The notes under the pieces are model-generated. The model saw nothing but the letters and a program-made list of their open reading frames with translations. It made no database searches and was not told the DNA's origin. Source: Candidatus Dojkabacteria bacterium (GTDB taxonomy: Bacteria; Patescibacteriota; Dojkabacteria; JAOAGR01). Taken from it: DNA of 64,000 nt. Positions within the stretch are counted from its first letter, which is position 1. Each line of letters begins with the position of its first letter. The stretch spans positions 291,996 to 355,995 of the forward strand of contig AP026679.1 in the NCBI GenBank assembly GCA_025999155.1, in the 5' to 3' direction. The translations under genes and the position numbers were made by a program. Shown here piece by piece: positions 12,887 to 62,960 of this stretch.

Positions 12887-13010
12887 TATTCAAGAGTTCT
12901 GACTTTCCTATTAGTTACATAGCCAAAGAACACATTCGATAATTTTTTATTTTCTGTACATTTTTGATGAGTTTCGGAAGACCTGAAAAAGATCTATTTT
13001 AAAGTACTTT

Positions 13011-13084
13011 TGGCTTCTCCGCTAGGATTCGAACCTAGACCTGGTGATTAACAGTCACCCACGCTACCATTACGCCACAGAGAA
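13011..13084 (-). tRNA. tRNA-Asn(GTT), 74 nt, CCA encoded
   Basis: TTCTCTG/CGGAGAA acceptor, GGTGA-CTGTTAA-TCACC anticodon arm, CTAGG-TTCGAAT-CCTAG T arm, G73-CCA. Confidence 0.92.
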
Positions 13085-13086
13085 AT

Positions 13087-13118
13087 AAAAAATCTCCCTC
13101 GATTACGAGGGAGATTTT
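13087..13118 (-). terminator. Intrinsic terminator (attenuator 3:4 helix) ending 2 nt before tRNA-Asn
   Basis: Minus strand AAAAUCUCCCUCG-UAAU-CGAGGGAGA-UUUUUU; perfect 9-bp GC-rich stem plus U6. Confidence 0.85.
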
Positions 13119-13143
13119 CTTTAAACCCAAATAACAATCCCCC

Positions 13144-13194
13144 TCAGACCGAGGAATTAAGATTATTATTTGAGTTTAGATTGAATAACACCAT
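13144..13194 (-). CDS. Asn-rich leader peptide MVLFNLNSNNNLNSSV (putative attenuator peptide)
   Basis: ATG GTG TTA TTC AAT CTA AAC TCA AAT AAT AAT CTT AAT TCC TCG GTC TGA; 6 of 16 codons are Asn; lies between a promoter and the terminator upstream of tRNA-Asn. Confidence 0.75.
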   Translation of the reverse strand: MVLFNLNSNNNLNSSV

Positions 13195-13230
13195 TTTTTG
13201 ATTTATGAATTTATTTATATTTACACCAAC

Positions 13231-13259
13231 AGTTTATATCATCCTTACAACATAGTCAA
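13231..13259 (-). promoter_or_regulatory. Sigma70-type promoter for the leader peptide/tRNA-Asn unit
   Basis: TTGACT-N17-TAAACT on the minus strand. Confidence 0.65.
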
Positions 13260-13378
13260 GTATTGAATTAGGAAAAAAGTAAAGCAATAACTAAAGGTAT
13301 TGGGATTGTCTGAGAAGAAATTAATTTTAGAATAAAAACAAATAAAGACAAAACAGACACATAATGTCATCTATTTAT

Positions 13379-13802
13379 TGGTGGAGATGGCGGGAATCGA
13401 ACCCGCGTCCGAAAAGTTCTTAAACAAACATCTACAAGCTTAGTAGGTTTCATATGTAGCTTTTGTCTTTAAAACCTACAAAATGACAAAGGCTTTTGGC
13501 CTTTAACTTGATCAAGACTGCCGGCCCGCAACCTTGACGGTCAACTTAGAAGTAAAGATCAATAGTAAGCTACGTTGACCTGCTCACTTACTACTCTACC
13601 CGAACAACTACTCTTCGTAGTGTCCGGAAGTTAGGCAGCTAATTGCACAACTTGTTGTGGGGTAATTGCACTAATTATAGATCTACCTAACTCGCTTAAT
13701 TTATTTTCTGCACTTTTTGATGAGCGATATTCTAGTACGTGTCATCGCCAAACACGACTTGCAGTTTGTTCAAGAACATCCCGTCAAGTCCAATACATCC
13801 CC
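13379..13802 (-). ncRNA. ssrA: tmRNA; tag reading frame 13631-13711 encodes AENKLSELGRSIISAITPQQVVQLAA*
   Basis: 5' GGGGATGTATTGGACTTGAC; 3' GACGCGGGTTCGATTCCCGCCATCTCCACCA; tag ends in LAA-TAA. Confidence 0.95.
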
Positions 13803-14148
13803 ATATAACGTCAAGTAACCATACTTAACGTAATTAAGTATACCATACCTGACCGAATCTGAGTCAAGTATACCGTAATTTGCTGAGTTCATTACAAATA
13901 TTTCTCTCCATCTAACATATTCAGATATCTAATTCATTCAAAGATCCAAAGATCACGCCCATATTCATAAGGCTTTTAATATTCGAAAGCTTAAAATAGT
14001 TATTAAAACAATTCAAAGATCACTCTCAACCTATAGAATTAAACAGACAAAGGATTATTTATAGTTTTCCACATCACAGAAGGAAGACCAACAAAGCGAG
14101 TTATATATTAATATATGAGGATTTTTGTTAATTAATGTTTTATAGGAC

Positions 14149-14176
14149 TTGACACGTATCGTATATGGGATATAAT
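14149..14176 (+). promoter_or_regulatory. Consensus sigma70 promoter with no convincing CDS downstream
   Basis: TTGACA-N16-TATAAT. Confidence 0.75.
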
Positions 14177-14182
14177 CATATC

Positions 14183-14362
14183 GCAATATAGGATTAGGGT
14201 ACCAACCGGACCCAAAACCCCCAAGTCTGGTTCGGTAAAAGAAGCCTACTGGACTTTGGGGTGTTGGGTTCGAGACTGACCTAGAATATCGATTCAAATG
14301 TTGGAATCTCATAAATGGGAATTCGGCATTGGGGTCGGTTGGGGCAGTACCGATCCCTTTTT
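14183..14362 (+). ncRNA. Candidate structured ncRNA of unknown class (~175 nt)
   Basis: GC-rich island after a consensus promoter; ends pair (GGAT/ATCC, GGTAC/GTACC, CAACC/GGTTG); long arm GGACCCAA..CCCCAAG.TCTGG / CTGGAC.TTTGGGG..TTGGGTTC with G-U pairs on this strand; ends in a T run. Confidence 0.7.
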
Positions 14363-14824
14363 GATTTTTTAATTGTCTCTATTTTAATCAGCTTATTACA
14401 CAAGCAGCAGGAATTAATCGAAAAATCTCAAATTACCATAACATACTTTGATCACTACCTTGCAGATACTGAAACAAATTACAGTAGCTTTAATGTTGAC
14501 TTTAGAGTGTACAAAGTCTCAACTAGCATAAAGCCAGATAAATAGAAAAAGTTTTTAAAATAATCGTACGCGAAACTTATCGACTATCGATAAAAAACTA
14601 TTAGCTTCGTAAGACACGGCCCAGACAACAAAGCATGTATTCAAGCATCTACCAGCAAAGGGTCGCTCCATCCAATCAGCAAAATGTTAAAGACAAAATA
14701 TTACAATATTTCAACTATTTGTTTGCGTGATTCTTTACGGTAATTCTGCATTCCTCATGGCAAAAGAGAAAATGTCGTCAGACATACGCAAATTACTGTA
14801 ATAGCAACTCAAGAATAAATAGAT

Positions 14825-16060
14825 CTATACCAAATACCTATATAGCATGTCATTACTATCAATTTTGAAGTATCTGAATCCTGATTTATTTAATCCTTCA
14901 ATAAAAGAATTATAATCTTCCTTATTATGTAATTCGATTCCTACAAGTGCTGGTCCAAATTCTTTATTTGTTTTTTTAAGATATTCAAATCTTACTATAT
15001 CAAAGTTGACACCTACAGTATCCAAAAACAATTTTAACTGGCCTGGTTTTTGAGCAAACTCAATGATGAAATAATGCTTTAAACCTTCGTAAATCAGACT
15101 TCTCTCCATGATTTCAGGATAGCGAGAGATATCATTATTTCCCCCACTGATTATACACACGACATTTTTACCCTGTGTATCACTTTCCACTGAATCTAAA
15201 GCAGCAACAGCCAATGCCCCAGCAGGCTCAGCAATTATCCCTTCTTCTTGGTACAACTCTATCATCGACGTACAGACCTTACCTTCAGGGACAACGAAAA
15301 CTTTGTCCACTTTTTCTTTTATAATATTAAATGTAATAGTACCTATTTTTTTTATGGCAGCACCATCAATAAATGTGTCAATATTAGTTAATTCTACCGG
15401 ATGACCCACATTAAGAGCTTCTACAGCTTTTGGAGCCCCCGCTGGATCGACTCCAAAAACCTTAATCCCCGAAATAACAGACTTAGCATAAGTAGAAATA
15501 CCAGAAATCAACCCTCCACCGCCTATTGGAACAATGATGATATCGGTATCAGGTAAATCCTCCAAAATTTCAATACCCACAGTCCCTTGGCCAGCAATAG
15601 TCCTTTCGTCATCGAATGGGTGTACATAAACTAGACCATCATCTTCAGCTCTTCTTTTTGAAGCTTGAAATGCCTCGTCAAAAGTTCTGCCAACTAATTC
15701 AATGTGTACAAATTGTCCTCCAAACTTTTTAACTTTATTAATCTTTTGGACAGGAGTAACCTCCGGCATGTAGACAATTCCTCGTATCCCCAAAGATGCA
15801 CATGCATAAGCAAAACCTTGAGCATGATTTCCGGCACTAGCACAAATAACTCCCCTACTTTTTTCTTCTTCTGAGAGTGAACTGATAAGATTATAAGCAC
15901 CACGAATTTTATACGAACGCACAGTTTGTAAATCCTCTCTTTTAAGATAAATTTTGGCTTTGTATTTATTTGATAACCTTGCTGAATATTGCAGCGGGGC
16001 ATGATTCACTACATTTTTTATGTTTTGATAGGCTTTTTGAATGGTCTCTGCGGTCAACAT
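14825..16060 (-). CDS. ilvA: Threonine ammonia-lyase IlvA, short (Bacillus-type) form
   Basis: KREDLQTVRSYKIRGAYN PLP-lysine motif, ASAGNHAQG, PIGGGGLISG, SGGNND, C-terminal regulatory domain. Confidence 0.95.
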   Translation of the reverse strand: MLTAETIQKAYQNIKNVVNHAPLQYSARLSNKYKAKIYLKREDLQTVRSYKIRGAYNLISSLSEEEKSRGVICASAGNHAQGFAYACASLGIRGIVYMPEVTPVQKINKVKKFGGQFVHIELVGRTFDEAFQASKRRAEDDGLVYVHPFDDERTIAGQGTVGIEILEDLPDTDIIIVPIGGGGLISGISTYAKSVISGIKVFGVDPAGAPKAVEALNVGHPVELTNIDTFIDGAAIKKIGTITFNIIKEKVDKVFVVPEGKVCTSMIELYQEEGIIAEPAGALAVAALDSVESDTQGKNVVCIISGGNNDISRYPEIMERSLIYEGLKHYFIIEFAQKPGQLKLFLDTVGVNFDIVRFEYLKKTNKEFGPALVGIELHNKEDYNSFIEGLNKSGFRYFKIDSNDMLYRYLV

Positions 16061-58396: not shown

Positions 58397-59068
58397 CTAT
58401 ACTTCTCTCCCCTTCCCTATCTTATATCTTCTCCAATACAGATAACCTAAAAGTACGACTAGTATACTAGCTATCACTTTAGACACTATACTTGTAATAC
58501 TTTCTAAAGAATCTGCTCCCTGTAAATAGGCAGAGCCCATCTGCCAACCAATAATCAGAAAAATTATATTCCTGACAATTCCTCCACAAAAAAAACTAAC
58601 AAAATAAGAAAGAGGATTTATTCTTAATACACCACAAGACACAGCAATAACCACACTCGGCATGACAGGCACAGATCGCAAAAACATTATTGTCAACTCA
58701 TCTTTTTTAGTACCATCTAATCTTGACTGCAAGTTTTGAATTTCATCCCAACTAACTCCAGTAAACTTCTTAGTTTTGTCAATAACAGGCTTACTTCCGA
58801 AATAACCTACAGCATACATGACATAAGATCCTAAAGTCGCACCAAAGCTCCCGACAATAGCCACTAAAAACATATTAGTGACAAGTCCTACAGAAATATC
58901 ATTATAATGTCCTAATAAAGCCGCTCCTGACGACATCATAACAAGAGGAGAAGGAATAGGTGCGATAATTTCTTCTACAGCCGACCCAATAAATACACCT
59001 AGTAAACCGTACTTAGCGATAATCTCCAAAACCCAATCTATAATATTTTTCACGATCTCCATGGTCAA
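58397..59068 (-). CDS. DedA/VTT family membrane protein
   Basis: EEIIAPIPS, GS.GA.LGS...Y.VG..G, LRSVP. Confidence 0.9.
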   Translation of the reverse strand: MTMEIVKNIIDWVLEIIAKYGLLGVFIGSAVEEIIAPIPSPLVMMSSGAALLGHYNDISVGLVTNMFLVAIVGSFGATLGSYVMYAVGYFGSKPVIDKTKKFTGVSWDEIQNLQSRLDGTKKDELTIMFLRSVPVMPSVVIAVSCGVLRINPLSYFVSFFCGGIVRNIIFLIIGWQMGSAYLQGADSLESITSIVSKVIASILVVLLGYLYWRRYKIGKGREV

Positions 59069-59104
59069 AATGATACACGATATTATGTTTTTGCAAAATT
59101 ATTC

Positions 59105-59797
59105 TCACTTGACTGAGAATGATGCATCCCATTTTCGAAATAATGCTGCAGTTGCTAGTACATCTCCATAACAATATCGAGCAACCTCAAGACCCTTGCC
59201 TTCTTTTATCATTGTCGTAACATCATATCCACACATCGTTTCTTTTGGACTTTTTATACCAAAAGCCTTGCAATAGAAATCTAAATTAAACCTTTTAATT
59301 GTGCCGTTAAATGTCAACTCTTCAAGAAGATCTATATGTGGATTAAATCCATTTGAAGTACGAAATCTAGGTGTCATAAGTTCAATCGAACATTTAACCC
59401 CTAAAATTGCTGATCGAATCCGAATAAACGGAATATCAAACGCTCTACCATTAAATGTAATATATCTGTCGTACTTTACTATAGTCTCCCAAAAATGTTC
59501 TAATATTTCCTTTTCATCACAAGCATAGTATTTCACATTTTCTTCCTCAAATTCGCTTGTTTCAAACTCTCCTAGACTCGGAGTATAAAAAACTGCCCCT
59601 CTATCTGAATCAACGTTATACATAGCAACGGTGACTATTTTACCCGTAAGTGGATATAGTCCCAATCCCTCCTTTATTAAACGTATTTCTTCATCATCTT
59701 TTGCGTACTTGATTAAATACTCTTGCTGTACCTGATCTAGATCTTTATCGAAATCCAGCCCTACTGTTTCTATATCAAAAACTACTCTGCTTAACAT
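59105..59797 (-). CDS. DEDD 3'-5' exonuclease (PolB-like/RNase H fold)
   Basis: FDIET, TFNGRAFDIPF, HIDL, YC.GDV. Confidence 0.9.
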   Translation of the reverse strand: MLSRVVFDIETVGLDFDKDLDQVQQEYLIKYAKDDEEIRLIKEGLGLYPLTGKIVTVAMYNVDSDRGAVFYTPSLGEFETSEFEEENVKYYACDEKEILEHFWETIVKYDRYITFNGRAFDIPFIRIRSAILGVKCSIELMTPRFRTSNGFNPHIDLLEELTFNGTIKRFNLDFYCKAFGIKSPKETMCGYDVTTMIKEGKGLEVARYCYGDVLATAALFRKWDASFSVK

Positions 59798-59912
59798 AAG
59801 TCAATTATATTTATATCACCATAATCAAACAAAATTTTAATTAACAAACAAAAATATATCTACAATCGTAAAAATGCAAATTTAAAACGACTTTGTAAGT
59901 AAATGATTCTAC

Positions 59913-60392
59913 TTACTCACTAAATAATAGCATGAACCAAGTTTGCCAATTTGATCTGGCTGTATTTTCTTTATCATATTGACCACTAGCGGGAGTAGGC
60001 AATACTGTAGGATTAGGTTTTTCGATCAAATAAATTGCCTCACCAGGTTTTTTATAACCTAACGACCGATATAAAGATTCTGTCTCAGATTCACTAGCAA
60101 TAGCTTCATTTTCTTTTCTTAATATCCTGTTCTCATTTTCAAGCTCATTTACTTGTTGATACAAAAGCTGCAATCTATTCTCTGCCTGATAACCCTCCTC
60201 AAGAGAATTCAATAATCTCATCCCAAAGAAACTTATGATGAAAAAGAACACAAGAAACCAACCTAAAAGTTTTAATGGTTCGATCTCATTTGTCCCAATT
60301 TTTGCCCTGAGACGCTTCCACAGAAGATTGTGTCTATACACTATCATGAATATGCTAAATATATTACTTTTTACATGATATTTAAATGCCAA
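59913..60392 (-). CDS. Septum formation initiator (FtsB/DivIC-like); start uncertain
   Basis: Single TM, coiled coil, E..R.LGYKKPGE motif. Confidence 0.7.
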   Translation of the reverse strand: MAFKYHVKSNIFSIFMIVYRHNLLWKRLRAKIGTNEIEPLKLLGWFLVFFFIISFFGMRLLNSLEEGYQAENRLQLLYQQVNELENENRILRKENEAIASESETESLYRSLGYKKPGEAIYLIEKPNPTVLPTPASGQYDKENTARSNWQTWFMLLFSE

Positions 60393-60394
60393 AT

Positions 60395-60439
60395 AAAAAA
60401 TCCTCTCTGTATCAGAGAGGATTTCGGTAAAAGAAGCCT
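60395..60439 (-). ncRNA. Candidate ~45-nt small RNA: 17-nt single-stranded 5' segment plus intrinsic terminator
   Basis: 5'-AGGCUUCUUUUACCGAAAUCCUCUCUG-AUA-CAGAGAGGAUUUUUU; the 5' 17 nt are complementary to 14231-14247. Confidence 0.6.
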
Positions 60440-60444
60440 GTATG

Positions 60445-60472
60445 ATGATACCACAACACGCACATAATGCAA
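60445..60472 (-). promoter_or_regulatory. Sigma70 promoter for the candidate sRNA
   Basis: TTGCAT-N16-TATCAT with extended -10 TG; predicted start 60439/60438. Confidence 0.6.
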
Positions 60473-60512
60473 TTAACCTATATCCTTACTATACAGCAGC
60501 GTGAACACGAGT

Positions 60513-60878
60513 TTATTTCCGGTAATTTCGTGAAACCAGTAGCTCAAAAAAACTAAATACGACGAATAAAGCGGCGAAAACTTGTATATCCAAAATCCCA
60601 TATATTTTGAGCATCACCAAAACAAAACTAAATATGCCAAAAACAAAAGCTCGCTTCACATAGACTTTTGTAATAATATCTTCATATAAATGTAGGTACC
60701 AATAAGCTAAAACCTGCAGGACCGCAAACAACGACCCTAACAAAACGCTTGTATTCAATGCAAAAATAAAAACATGTACATTATTCAAAAGACCACTATG
60801 ATTAATCGGATTCAACAAAAAAATAATTAATATTTCAACAATCAATGAAACAATAAACACAACTAACGTGATAAACAT
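60513..60878 (-). CDS. Hypothetical 4-TM membrane protein
   Basis: Four hydrophobic segments; L.P and R..L-like patterns. Confidence 0.75.
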   Translation of the reverse strand: MFITLVVFIVSLIVEILIIFLLNPINHSGLLNNVHVFIFALNTSVLLGSLFAVLQVLAYWYLHLYEDIITKVYVKRAFVFGIFSFVLVMLKIYGILDIQVFAALFVVFSFFELLVSRNYRK

Positions 60879-61043
60879 ACTCTCTTTTCCTGATATTTAT
60901 TAGCTTAGTAGAATATTATTAACAATCCCGAATAAATCCAAGTCCTTTTGTTATAAAAGACAGTTTCGAAAAGTCAATACCCCAAAACGTACAGAATTTT
61001 TAGTCCTTCGATATATTGCCCACAGCCATAAAACTTCTTTAAA

Positions 61044-61439
61044 TTAATCACGAATCAGCAGCGGAACAAGATCATCAGGAACAGCCATCACCGACAGCCG
61101 AGGATTTCTGACCAGCAGAAAATCGCGAAATAAAATATTAGATTTAATCTCTTTTAGAAAAACAGGAGTTTTAAATTTTCTCTCGAACATTATCTCTACT
61201 GCATATGAGGGACGAGGAGCGTTCAAATCTTGAAAAGGCTCGCTACATACACTGCACATACCCACAATAGCTTTATCTTTTTGAGAATGATAAATCAACA
61301 CCTTATCACCAGTCTTCATTGATTTGATAAAATTAATAGCCTGAAAATTATATACCCCATCCCAAATAGTTTTTAACTCTCGAGCTAAATCGTCTATTGA
61401 GTAACAGTCTGGATCTGTTTTAAACAAAAAATATCTCAT
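61044..61439 (-). CDS. EVE domain protein (PUA-like)
   Basis: YFLFKTDP..YSIDDL...WDGV.NFQA...MK.GD..LIYHS...RLSV. Confidence 0.93.
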   Translation of the reverse strand: MRYFLFKTDPDCYSIDDLARELKTIWDGVYNFQAINFIKSMKTGDKVLIYHSQKDKAIVGMCSVCSEPFQDLNAPRPSYAVEIMFERKFKTPVFLKEIKSNILFRDFLLVRNPRLSVMAVPDDLVPLLIRD

Positions 61440-61487
61440 ACATGCTATTCATTTGTATCATTAATACTTTACCGTATAATTGTGAGA

Positions 61488-62960
61488 ATGAAAAGTGAAT
61501 TTCCTGAAACTAAACTTACAAGATTGGGCAAGAAGCTAGGATGGCTTTTTTCACCTCTTCTATTTATCTCCTTACTCACATTTACCATTTTTTCTGTGAA
61601 TAATATAAGAATCGATTTTAATTCTGCAAAAATCGAGGAAATGGATTATATACATCTTCGTGATGTATCTAACTTTGATGTCTATCTAGACGACAAAAAA
61701 ATAGGTACGACTTCTCAAGTATTAGCTTTGCCACGAAAAGAAAACAGTAGTCATCCATTTAAGATCTATATAAAAACAAACGATAATCGATTCTGGGAAA
61801 AGACGATCAAATTTCAAAAAGGCTTCGTTTCAGTATACTACCCAATTCTCTACCCTCAGACTCTAGATTTTAAAGATCAGAGTATCGAAGCTAAGGCAGT
61901 TTATCCTACATCAAACCCGAACGTTTTTTTTTACGAGAAAATAGAAAATAACAGATTAATGCTTTATCGCTATTCTATCTCAAGATTAATTTTTAGACTC
62001 AATATCAAAAACGAGCAATTTATAGATTTAACCAGTATACTTAAACCAGATAATGTACTCAGACCAAAAAAAATACTTCCTAGTCATCTAGGCACACACG
62101 TTGCTATCATCATACCAAAAGAGAAAATATACATTATCCAAGAAGATGCAAGAGTATCAGAATTACCTGGTTACATCCCGCACGAAGATGACGAATATTA
62201 TTGGTCTCCAGACAACTCCTACTTTGTAATCCAAAATAATAGAGAAATACTTTCACGTAATATATCAACCAACACAACTCACTCCATATATAAACAAACA
62301 ACTCCTGAGGAAAGAGCCTCCATACACTTTTGTGCTGATGATTTTATTGTATACTCAGTCATACGACCAGAAAATATCGATCTAGTACAAAATACATATT
62401 TTGGTAATAACCCACAACAAATTGACATTCCCAATTTTGATAATATCAGGCGAAATAACCTATTAAAAGCATACAATTTTCTTAAAAAACAAAATATTAT
62501 CCTCATCCAAACTGAAACAAATATTTATACATTTAATCTTGCAAACTACGAACTTAGGAAATTCAATCTATATCCCAACGAAAAAATCGTTTATTTAGAC
62601 AGTGATAATCAAGTCATACTGACAAATAATACTTTGTCTCCCAATCAGTTTCGTTATTATAACTTAGATAGAAACGAGAACACCTCATTGTCTATCAATG
62701 GTATAAATCATGATGAGACACCCGCACGAATCATAGGATATAATTACAGTCAAAATCTTTTTATAGAGTATTCTGACAAACTCATCTTATCTGACATCAA
62801 TGGAGAAAATCAAAAGGAAATCGCAAAATCAACAAAACTAGATTCCATACTCACAGCAATCAAAGAAAATCGTGAGGTATTGCTAGGAATGATTGTGTTA
62901 AACCAACAAACTGAATCCCCAAACAAATTGCTGATTAATATTGAAATATTTGATATTTAG
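61488..62960 (+). CDS. Single-TM extracytoplasmic protein (PEGA-like segment plus WSPD propeller-like repeat)
   Basis: TM, VYLDDKKIGTT, WEKTI, YYWSPD; ATG 61488 lies 7 nt after TATAAT. Confidence 0.7.
   Translation: MKSEFPETKLTRLGKKLGWLFSPLLFISLLTFTIFSVNNIRIDFNSAKIEEMDYIHLRDVSNFDVYLDDKKIGTTSQVLALPRKENSSHPFKIYIKTNDNRFWEKTIKFQKGFVSVYYPILYPQTLDFKDQSIEAKAVYPTSNPNVFFYEKIENNRLMLYRYSISRLIFRLNIKNEQFIDLTSILKPDNVLRPKKILPSHLGTHVAIIIPKEKIYIIQEDARVSELPGYIPHEDDEYYWSPDNSYFVIQNNREILSRNISTNTTHSIYKQTTPEERASIHFCADDFIVYSVIRPENIDLVQNTYFGNNPQQIDIPNFDNIRRNNLLKAYNFLKKQNIILIQTETNIYTFNLANYELRKFNLYPNEKIVYLDSDNQVILTNNTLSPNQFRYYNLDRNENTSLSINGINHDETPARIIGYNYSQNLFIEYSDKLILSDINGENQKEIAKSTKLDSILTAIKENREVLLGMIVLNQQTESPNKLLINIEIFDI

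What the first reader, a model, noticed from the sequence alone, without database searches (positions are those of the whole stretch)
60395..60472. Tiny promoter-terminator RNA antisense to the loop of an orphan ncRNA 46 kb away
Seen: TTCGGTAAAAGAAGCCT occurs exactly at 14231-14247 and at 60423-60439. At 14231 it forms 17 of the 18 nt of the apical loop of the candidate ncRNA (+ strand, closed by GUCUGG/CUGGAC). At 60423 the promoter (TTGCAT-N16-TATCAT with extended TG) and the terminator U-tract are on the minus strand. The predicted ~45-nt RNA (AGGCUUCUUUUACCGAA-AUCCUCUCUG-AUA-CAGAGAGGAU-UUUUU) therefore starts at the first complementary base, and its whole single-stranded part is antisense to that loop. 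Rough uniform-base arithmetic: some 17-mer match anywhere in 64 kb is not rare (~0.2 expected), but a match to this particular loop is about 1e-5, and both ends coincide with functional boundaries. Inference: a trans-encoded two-RNA system (guide/scaffold, sponge/target or two-piece RNA). Alternatively the ncRNA could act in trans on this leader-terminator, which lies directly upstream of the ftsB/divIC-like gene.
Basis: partly seen in the sequence, partly recalled or inferred. Interest (0 to 1): 0.85.

Follow-up and report, generated by a model that had tools for sequence, protein, structure and literature searches.

The report
Tiny antisense RNA gene matching ncRNA tip
A conserved 80-base promoter-17mer-terminator unit in this small Dojkabacteria (WS6) genome is exactly complementary to the tip of a class-wide structured RNA gene 46 kb away, and the two sequences change together in 16 related genomes, so the two predicted RNAs likely pair, although neither transcript has been seen and the function is unknown.

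Summary

**The match.** The 17-mer is exact at 14231-14247 and 60423-60439. These are the only two copies in the 738-kb genome.

**The ncRNA.** It is not an orphan. It is a Dojkabacteria (WS6)-wide RNA gene with a consensus promoter, absent from Rfam. Its long hairpin shows strong covariation. The hairpin tip ("apex", 14-20 nt) varies between families.

**The tiny unit.**
- The same arrangement is found in 16 genomes of 4 families.
- The arrangement is a promoter (mostly TG-extended -10), then 17-18 nt complementary to that genome's own apex, then a hairpin plus U-run (one genome lacks a clear terminator).
- Three apex sequence classes, one of them unrelated to the other two, each have a matching partner.
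- Gene context differs: before a divIC-like gene, before rpsO-pnp, or stand-alone. This argues for an independent tiny gene.
- 11 genomes with other apex types show no partner.

**Most likely reading.** A dedicated trans-encoded antisense pair. Full pairing would have to open the conserved upper stem, so the tiny RNA would switch or block the ncRNA.

**Limits.** Transcription is not shown, because the public RNA contigs were uninformative. The biological role of both RNAs is unknown.

The parts
60467..60472 (-). -35-like hexamer TTGCAT of the tiny unit
   Evidence: Read. It matches the consensus at only 3 of 6 positions, so the scan does not call it. TTGC.. or TTGAC. stands at the same place in the relatives' units.
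60445..60453 (-). TG-extended -10 (TGgTATCAT), 16 nt after the -35
   Evidence: Read. A TAnnAT hexamer lies 5-10 nt before the complementary segment in the 13 units printed, read by eye. Most carry TG one base upstream.
60423..60439 (-). 17-nt segment AGGCUUCUUUUACCGAA. It is the predicted single-stranded 5' end of the tiny RNA and is complementary to the ncRNA apex.
   Evidence: Exact repeat. Predicted unpaired. Duplex with the apex -26.5 kcal/mol.
60391..60422 (-). Intrinsic terminator: 10-bp stem AUCCUCUCUG / CAGAGAGGAU, loop AUA, then U5AU3
   Evidence: Called by the scan, 1 found against 0.1 expected. Fold -17.8 kcal/mol, z -5.4. Relatives have hairpins of different sequence at the same place.
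14149..14176 (+). Consensus promoter of the ncRNA (TTGACA-16-TATAAT, 12 of 12)
   Evidence: A TTGACA-like -35 with at most 1 mismatch was found in 25 of 27 relatives' genes examined.
14183..14362 (+). Dojkabacteria-wide structured ncRNA, about 180 nt. The start is predicted.
   Evidence: Fold z -5.4. BLAST matches in 27 of 41 class genomes. More than 119 loci in public genomes. No Rfam family.
14210..14269 (+). Hairpin 1: stems 14210-14230 and 14249-14269, with a conserved tandem U.G/G.U and a conserved mismatch
   Evidence: Covariation in 47 sequences: 89.3% paired against 64.4% in shuffles. 15 of 22 pairs have changes on both sides.
14231..14248 (+). Apex of hairpin 1 (UUCGGUAAAAGAAGCCUA), the target of the tiny RNA
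   Evidence: The apex is the variable part of the hairpin across families.
14331..14362 (+). 3' hairpin GGGGUCGGU-UGGGGCAGU-ACCGAUCCC plus U5. It is conserved in sequence across the class.
59913..60347 (-). divIC/ftsB-like gene downstream of the tiny unit. It is a neighbour, not shown to be part of the system.
   Evidence: Pfam DivIC, 28.3 bits against a cut-off of 28.9, E 1.6e-6. The same neighbour is found in 6 family genomes. A promoter-like site of its own lies at 60386-60358.

Best explanation
Window 60391-60472 (minus strand) holds a conserved tiny gene (promoter, 17 nt, terminator). Its predicted RNA of about 45 nt is complementary to the entire apex of hairpin 1 of a Dojkabacteria-wide structured ncRNA (14183-14362). 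The two RNAs likely pair, and the tiny RNA would then act as a dedicated antisense switch or antagonist of the ncRNA.

Shown here:
- the exact match;
- its coincidence with the apex boundaries;
- the unit's architecture;
- its conservation and co-variation with the apex in 16 genomes.

Inferred:
- Both are transcribed as predicted from consensus promoters and terminators.
- The free 5' 17-18 nt of the tiny RNA anneal to the apex.
- A 17-bp helix cannot sit in an 18-nt loop closed by a stem (established RNA geometry, not computed here). Complete pairing would therefore have to melt the conserved U.G/G.U-containing upper stem. That would remodel the most conserved part of the hairpin, which presumably binds a protein or other partner.
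- The strongly promoted ncRNA would, in turn, soak up the tiny RNA.

What the ncRNA itself does is unknown.
For: (1) Rarity. Two exact copies in 738 kb and none at 1-2 mismatches. None of 100 shuffled 17-mers has an exact or 1-mismatch hit.

(2) Boundaries. The match spans the apex as delimited by a covariation-supported helix.

(3) Same architecture in relatives.
- Family f1: 6 of 7 genomes.
- Family f6: 7 of 9.
- Family f18: 1 of 2.
- Family f20: 2 of 6.
- In all 16 the promoter lies on the strand that makes the RNA antisense to the apex.

(4) Co-variation.
- Class A (UUCGGUAAAAGAAGCCUA), class B (UUAGUAAAAGAAGCUUUG) and the unrelated class C (UUGAAGAGUCCCUUCGUA) each have a cognate partner.
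- In the 13 loop/site pairs tabulated, 14-18 of 18 positions are Watson-Crick and 0-3 are G.U.
- Within f1, genus g3 changed AAGCC to AGGCC in both the apex and the partner.
- Several one-sided changes give G.U pairs: 2 in G003, 1 in G001, 3 in G002.

(5) Structure of the tiny RNA. In 6 of 6 f1 units the complementary segment is almost entirely predicted unpaired and is followed by a hairpin. The hairpin sequences differ between genomes.

(6) Context. It differs between lineages: divIC-like gene in f1, rpsO-pnp in f6 and f18, a convergent gene in G043. In f6 the upstream gene is divergent in 3 of the 4 loci examined, so a promoter of the unit's own is needed there.

(7) Energetics. Duplex -26.5 kcal/mol, against opening costs of +6.3 and +3.3.
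Against: - No transcript evidence. Four metatranscriptome runs, held as contigs, cover neither the tiny locus nor the ncRNA at depth. One 187-nt contig of depth 2.6 runs through the ncRNA's terminator, while the neighbouring tmRNA stands at depths of 130-990.
- The window's -35 is weak (3 of 6), and the scan tool does not call the promoter.
- One unit (G042) has no clear terminator, and some f6 hairpins are weak (L059: z -0.39).
- In f1 and f6 a co-directional gene starts 15-130 nt after the unit, so a leader role is not excluded.
- A partner was not found in 5 of 24 genomes of the four families that carry the same or a near-identical apex (G005, G041, G044, G120, G124).
- No partner was found in 11 genomes with other apex types. 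The pairing is therefore not essential to the ncRNA's core function.
- The switch/antagonist step is inference only.
- RNAcofold cannot model pairing inside a loop, so its output is not a test.
Confidence: 0.5

Rival explanations
1. Two-piece RNA. The tiny RNA would be a constitutive subunit that supplies in trans an apical helix. Other families carry such a helix in cis, as a hairpin inserted in the apex. The duplex, stacked on the tiny RNA's own hairpin, would be part of the working structure rather than a switch.
For: Some families have a hairpin of roughly 8-20 bp inserted in the apex: L017-L020 and L023 and L132, L133, L166, L177. In most f1 units the complementary segment abuts the terminator hairpin with no spacer, which would allow stacking. 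The complementarity covers the whole apex.
Against: Close relatives with the same or a near-identical apex lack a detectable partner (G005, G041, G044, G120, G124), though G005 is only 70% complete. In f6 a 12-15 nt spacer separates the complement from the hairpin. The geometry of a 17-bp helix inside an 18-nt closed loop argues for disruption rather than completion of the hairpin.
Confidence: 0.2
2. The unit would be the 5' end of a longer transcript: divIC-like in f1, rpsO-pnp in f6 and f18. The ncRNA would be a trans-acting regulator whose apex pairs with the extreme 5' end of that mRNA and changes its stability or read-through.
For: A co-directional gene follows in 14 of 16 units: all of f1, f6 and f18. 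In f6 the start codon lies within about 25 nt of the U-run, which leaves little room for another promoter. G042 has no clear terminator, so its 18-mer would head the rpsO-pnp mRNA.
Against: The downstream genes are unrelated between lineages, and in G043 the next gene is convergent. In the window a separate promoter-like site (TTTAAA-17-TATATT, 60386-60358) lies between the terminator and the divIC-like start. The f1 terminators are strong. A trans RNA could hardly bind a nascent 17-mer before the adjacent terminator forms (inference from kinetics).
Confidence: 0.17
3. DNA-level explanation. The two copies would be operators for one DNA-binding protein, or attachment-site or recombination repeats of a mobile island next to the tmRNA gene.
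For: In the window both copies lie in the same orientation, 46 kb apart. One is about 430 nt from the tmRNA gene.
Against: In G006, G002 and G029 the two copies on one contig are inverted and at other distances, so they are not island borders. There are only two copies per genome. The match ends exactly at the boundaries of an RNA helix. Three sequence classes would require the protein's specificity to change each time. The 17-mer is not palindromic.
Confidence: 0.05
4. 6S-RNA-like decoy with a gene-encoded 'product RNA'. RNA polymerase would bind the ncRNA, and the tiny RNA would mimic the short RNA that polymerase copies from 6S RNA to free itself.
For: The apex has the sequence of the template strand of the tiny unit's first 17 nt. 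The length, 17 nt, is in the range recalled for 6S product RNAs (14-20 nt). No 6S RNA was found in this genome.
Against: The ncRNA lacks 6S architecture. The 5' and 3' ends form no closing stem, and the single-stranded part is an apical loop rather than a central bubble. There is no Rfam 6S match even at E up to 10.
Confidence: 0.03

Closest known systems
Sponge / anti-sRNA pairs of enterobacteria, such as AgvB or SroC against GcvB and the 3'ETS-leuZ fragment against RyhB/RybB (recalled, not tested here)
   Same: One small RNA base-pairs with another non-coding RNA and would titrate or inactivate it. The partner is trans-encoded with extended complementarity. The layout is a 5' seed followed by a terminator hairpin.
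   Different: - The target here is the structured tip of a class-wide RNA of housekeeping type, not the seed of a regulator.
- The complementarity is 17-18 nt and co-evolves over four families.
- The organism is a CPR bacterium, and whether it has a chaperone such as Hfq was not tested here.
- No expression data exist.
Loop-to-linear antisense control of plasmids: RNA I/RNA II of ColE1, CopA/CopT of R1 (recalled)
   Same: An unstructured stretch or loop of one RNA meets a hairpin loop of another. Complete pairing requires refolding of the target hairpin.
   Different: Those pairs are cis-encoded on opposite strands of one locus, so their complementarity needs no co-evolution. Here the genes lie 46 kb apart and must co-vary.
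6S RNA and its product RNA (recalled)
   Same: A short RNA of 14-20 nt, complementary to a single-stranded part of an abundant structured RNA, refolds that RNA.
   Different: Product RNAs are copied from 6S RNA and have no gene of their own. The ncRNA here fails the structural definition of 6S RNA.
Two-piece structural RNAs: two-piece tmRNA, tracrRNA:crRNA (recalled)
   Same: Two separately transcribed RNAs joined by a co-evolving helix.
   Different: There is no CRISPR array or cas gene context at the loci read, though no dedicated search was made. The tmRNA of this genome is one-piece and lies elsewhere. The partner is missing in most families that have the ncRNA.

Membership tests
Trans-encoded base-pairing sRNA pair (sRNA with sponge or anti-sRNA) | Separate transcription units, each with its own promoter and terminator | tested here: met
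   By prediction only. ncRNA: 12-of-12 promoter and a terminator. Tiny unit: terminator called, TG-extended -10 conserved in relatives.
Trans-encoded base-pairing sRNA pair (sRNA with sponge or anti-sRNA) | Complementarity kept by co-variation between unlinked loci | tested here: met
   16 genomes, 4 families, 3 sequence classes.
Trans-encoded base-pairing sRNA pair (sRNA with sponge or anti-sRNA) | Both RNAs detected, on the predicted strands | tested here: inconclusive
   The RNA-run contigs give no cover of the tiny locus and one low-depth contig over half of the ncRNA. Contigs carry no strand or end information.
Trans-encoded base-pairing sRNA pair (sRNA with sponge or anti-sRNA) | Physical pairing and a regulatory effect | not testable with these tools
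   Only energies were computed: duplex -26.5, opening +6.3 and +3.3 kcal/mol.
6S RNA (Rfam RF00013) | Rod with closing stem, central bubble and terminal stem; match to the family model | tested here: not met
   No match in the genome, and none at E up to 10 on the ncRNA. The folds show a 5' tail, a hairpin and a 3' hairpin.
SRP RNA (RF00169, RF01854) | Conserved domain IV motif, and an Ffh protein to bind it | tested here: not met
   - No model match in the own genome, and none in 0 of 41 class genomes.
- The recalled core motif is absent.
- In 0 of 41 genomes does an SRP54 match cover more than 110 of the 196 profile positions. Two partial matches reach the cut-off. All 14 control genomes match over the cut-off.
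Cis-acting leader / attenuator of one gene | Constant association with the regulated gene | tested here: not met
   Three different contexts: divIC-like gene, rpsO-pnp, convergent gene.
Attachment-site repeats of an integrated island | Direct repeats that flank the island in every carrier | tested here: not met
   The copies are inverted on one contig in G006, G002 and G029.
Any Rfam 15 family | Score at or above the gathering threshold | tested here: not met
   - Window: only tmRNA and tRNAs.
- The two loci at E up to 10: chance-level hits only.
- 15 relatives' ncRNA loci: only a tmRNA.
- 8 relatives' tiny loci: none.

The most novel reading that the evidence does not exclude
The ncRNA is the RNA core of an unknown ribonucleoprotein of Dojkabacteria, a class in which neither SRP RNA nor a full SRP54-type GTPase was found. 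Its variable apex is a programmable recognition module. The tiny RNA is its trans-encoded second piece, or its dedicated 5'-end target. That would make this a two-piece, co-evolving, RNA-guided machine new to bacteria.
Probability: 0.15. Interest if true: 0.88.

Novelty: new variant of a known kind. Interest (0 to 1): 0.68.

Why it matters
CPR bacteria have tiny genomes and few known regulators, and I know of no regulatory RNA described for them. Four full-text searches found none for this class.

This locus offers two things:
- a class-wide structured RNA with a consensus promoter, unknown to Rfam;
- in four families, a minimal gene of about 45 nt whose only evident property is to match that RNA's tip.

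The match is kept by co-variation between unlinked loci. That is about the strongest evidence for an RNA-RNA contact that sequence alone can give, and it yields a directly testable pair for gel shift, probing and compensatory mutants. If the tiny RNA switches or completes the large one, it gives a handle on the function of an abundant RNA in an uncultured lineage.

Tried and rejected
- **RNA evidence.** One run search gave four metatranscriptome runs held as contigs. Laid on 13000-16000 and 59000-62000, they give no cover of 60313-60514 and one contig of depth 2.6 at 14279-14465. This proves nothing either way.
- **RNAcofold of both RNAs.** The method forbids pairing inside a hairpin loop. Its ddG of -2.2 against a shuffled mean of -3.5 is therefore not a test.
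- **Synteny route to partners in other families.** Using the neighbouring exonuclease, only 5 of 41 genomes have it. The one extra locus (G007, family f2) shows no apex match within the 3.7 kb held. G007 was not searched genome-wide.
- **ncRNA as SRP RNA.** Rejected.
- **ncRNA as 6S RNA.** Rejected.
- **ncRNA as leader of rho.** Rho follows it in many families, but with its own TTGACA / TATACT-type promoter after the ncRNA's terminator.
- **Island att sites.** Rejected on orientation.
- **Partners for other apex types.** None found.
  - Families f5 and f4, 5 genomes: counts are like the control. The two 1-mismatch hits in G028 are a second hairpin module and a site inside a 657-codon frame. 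The G009 hit lies inside a 977-codon frame.
  - Family f7, 4 genomes.
  - G047 and G048.
  - G045 and G046 were searched only with a pattern 3 mismatches from their own apex. This is inconclusive.
- **Earlier notes of this scan.** Nothing.
- **Papers.** Four full-text searches. I saw listings only and read no paper. None of the listed papers concerns these RNAs.

Full report
**1. The observation**

TTCGGTAAAAGAAGCCT stands exactly at 14231-14247 and 60423-60439, both on the + strand. There is no further match with up to 2 mismatches in the window, and none of 100 shuffles gave two matches.

The window lies in a single-contig genome of 738,054 bases. Over both strands that genome has 2 exact copies, none at 1-2 mismatches and one at 3. 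One hundred shuffled versions of the 17-mer gave mean counts of 0, 0 and 0.15 at 0, 1 and 2 mismatches.

**2. The ncRNA**

*In the window*
- 14149-14176 is a 12-of-12 sigma-70 promoter, and 14331-14362 is a hairpin plus U5.
- The RNA between them folds with z = -5.4.
- Rfam 15 has no family for it, at gathering thresholds or at E up to 10.

*Distribution*
- It is not an orphan. BLAST finds it in 27 of 41 genomes of the same class.
- A pattern for its 3' hairpin hits at least 119 stretches in public genomes. Most of the 80 fetched records are titled Dojkabacteria or candidate division WS6; some carry other labels such as Saccharibacteria.
- A TTGACA-like -35 with at most one mismatch was found in 25 of 27 relatives' genes examined.

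*Common plan*
- a 5' tail;
- a long hairpin 1;
- a variable middle;
- the sequence-conserved 3' hairpin GGGGUCGGU-UGGGGCAGU-ACCGAUCCC.

*Covariation of hairpin 1.* In 47 distinct hairpin-1 sequences, 89.3% of cells pair against 64.4% in shuffles. The covariation score is 0.625 against 0.175, reached by 0 of 500 shuffles. Slid controls give 35-54% paired. Fifteen of the 22 main-stem pairs change on both sides.

*Conserved features of hairpin 1*
- Below the tip lies a nearly invariant tandem U.G/G.U (45-46 of 47).
- Nine pairs lower lies a conserved non-pair (42 of 47).
- The tip itself ("apex", 14-20 nt) is the variable part. It is usually a mini stem-loop of a few base pairs and sometimes carries an inserted hairpin.
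- In the window the apex is 14231-14248.

*Independence.* In many families the RNA lies between radA and rho. Rho has its own promoter after the ncRNA's terminator, so the RNA is an independent gene.

**3. The tiny unit**

On the minus strand of the window the order is:
- TTGCAT (60472-60467), 16 nt, then TGgTATCAT (60453-60445);
- 5 nt, then AGGCUUCUUUUACCGAA (60439-60423);
- a 10-bp hairpin (60422-60400);
- U5AU3.

The scan tool calls the terminator, 1 found against 0.1 expected. It does not call the promoter, whose -35 matches 3 of 6. The 17 nt are predicted single-stranded.

**4. Relatives**

| Family | Genomes with the unit | Apex class | Context |
|---|---|---|---|
| f1 (the window's own) | 6 of 7 | A, UUCGGUAAAAGAAGCCUA | between a small membrane-protein gene and a divIC-like gene |
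| f6 | 7 of 9 | B, UUAGUAAAAGAAGCUUUG | before rpsO-pnp where read (4 loci) |
| f18 | 1 of 2 | B | about 225 nt before rpsO-pnp |
| f20 | 2 of 6 | C, UUGAAGAGUCCCUUCGUA | G043: convergent gene downstream |

Details by family:
- **f1.** The seventh genome, G005, is 70% complete and has no convincing second site.
- **f6.** The unit is TTGACT-N17-TAnnAT, 5-10 nt, the complement of that family's own apex, a spacer (12-15 nt in most), then a hairpin plus U-run.
- **f18.** G042 has the promoter and the 18-mer but no clear terminator. G041 has no second site at up to 2 mismatches.
- **f20.** The apex is unrelated in sequence to classes A and B. G043 has a promoter-like stretch, an 18-mer with 16 of 18 complementary positions, and a terminator. 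G121 has 14 contiguous complementary bases (15 of 18) followed by a hairpin plus U-run.

In all 16 units the promoter is on the strand that makes the RNA antisense to the apex.

The 13 loop/site pairs tabulated have 14-18 Watson-Crick and 0-3 G.U pairs out of 18. Mismatches lie at or near the ends. Within f1, genus g3 carries AGGCC instead of AAGCC in both the apex and the partner. Several one-sided differences give G.U pairs (G003 2, G001 1, G002 3).

The hairpins after the complement differ in sequence between genomes but keep their place.

**5. Results against, or of no help**
- A partner was not found in G005, G041, G044, G120 and G124, although they have the same or a near-identical apex.
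- No partner was found in 11 genomes with other apex types: 5 of f5 and f4, 4 of f7, G047 and G048.
- G045 and G046 were not searched with their own apex.
- G007 (f2) was looked at in one locus only.
- The RNA-run contigs do not cover the tiny locus and barely cover the ncRNA, while the neighbouring tmRNA stands at depths of 130-990. This is no evidence either way, but it means that transcription is not shown.
- No Rfam family matches the tiny loci.

**6. Mechanism**

What the sequence shows is two unlinked loci kept complementary over exactly the apex. The simplest reading is RNA-RNA pairing between the free 5' end of a minimal "seed plus terminator" RNA and the tip of hairpin 1.

The computed duplex energy is -26.5 kcal/mol, against opening costs of 6.3 and 3.3.

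From established RNA geometry (inference, not computed), a helix of about 17 bp cannot form inside an 18-nt loop held shut by its stem. Complete pairing must therefore melt the upper stem, which carries the conserved U.G/G.U pairs. I therefore take the tiny RNA to be a dedicated switch or antagonist of the ncRNA. The ncRNA, with its consensus promoter, would in turn be its sink.

My odds:

| Claim | Odds |
|---|---|
| The two RNAs pair in the cell | about 0.85 |
| The consequence is antagonism or switching | about 0.5 |
| Tiny RNA is a constitutive second piece | 0.2 |
| The 17-mer heads a longer mRNA on which the ncRNA acts | 0.17 |
| DNA-level explanations | 0.05 |
| A 6S/product-RNA-like relation | 0.03 |

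**7. Rivals in brief**
- *Leader reading.* It gains from the co-directional genes in f1, f6 and f18. It loses from the unrelated identity of those genes, the convergent gene in G043, the strong f1 terminators, and a separate promoter-like site before the divIC-like start (60386-60358).
- *Att-site reading.* It fails because the copies are inverted in G006, G002 and G029.
- *SRP RNA.* Excluded:
  - no model match in 0 of 41 genomes;
  - no core motif;
  - in 0 of 41 genomes does an SRP54 match cover more than 110 of 196 profile positions, two partial matches reach the cut-off, and all 14 controls match over the cut-off.
- *6S RNA.* Excluded by architecture and by the model.

**8. Comparison with known systems (recalled, not tested)**

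The closest kind is the sRNA-sponge or anti-sRNA pair. The loop-to-linear antisense RNAs of plasmids share the refolding step but are cis-encoded. Differences are listed under Closest known systems.

Four full-text searches found no paper on these RNAs. I saw listings only.

**9. Verdict**

This is a real, conserved, co-evolving pair of loci. Expression, pairing and function remain to be shown. I rate it a new variant of a known kind, with interest 0.68.

Noticed in passing
whole genome G000 and 40 class relatives: No SRP system was found. SRP RNA models match 0 of 41 Dojkabacteria genomes. In 0 of 41 does an SRP54-type GTPase (PF00448) match cover more than 110 of the 196 profile positions, at up to 24.6 bits; two partial matches reach the cut-off. 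All 14 control genomes match over the cut-off. The own genome, 94% complete and in one contig, also lacks the recalled G-domain motif pair. If real, a whole bacterial class without Ffh, FtsY and SRP RNA would be remarkable. The M-domain family was not searched.
   Followed up: partly
L009/L035 (G001), L007/L039 (G004), L008 (G005), L253 (G045), L263 (G047), L093 (G028), G225:C24:5547-5739: The hairpin-1 module is duplicated in several genomes. Some duplicates are tandem second hairpins inside the ncRNA, 64-66 nt apart. Some form a mini-gene right after the ncRNA's terminator. One lies on another contig. In G001 the tiny unit matches the second module's apex exactly.
   Followed up: partly
L006, L010, L012-L014, L017, L019, L021, L022, L029: Conserved order radA (or a Clp ATPase) - ncRNA - rho in many families. 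In f6 the ncRNA lies before rplJ-rplL-like genes, named by eye without a Pfam search. In f1 it lies next to the tmRNA gene.
   Followed up: partly
window 60358-60386 (minus strand): A promoter-like site, TTTAAA-17-TATATT, ends 11 nt before the ATG of the divIC-like gene (60347). That would give a nearly leaderless mRNA.
   Followed up: no
window 13379-13802 (minus strand): The tmRNA is 424 nt against a model of 374 positions, with a long low-confidence insert in the middle of the alignment. In the RNA runs a close variant is abundant, with a 3-base insertion and 4 substitutions.
   Followed up: no
L011 and L016 (G006, G002), ncRNA 3' part: A second hairpin with the same loop motif, UUGGGGCAGUG, precedes the conserved 3' hairpin. 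The loop motif, not only the terminator, therefore seems to be the selected element.
   Followed up: no
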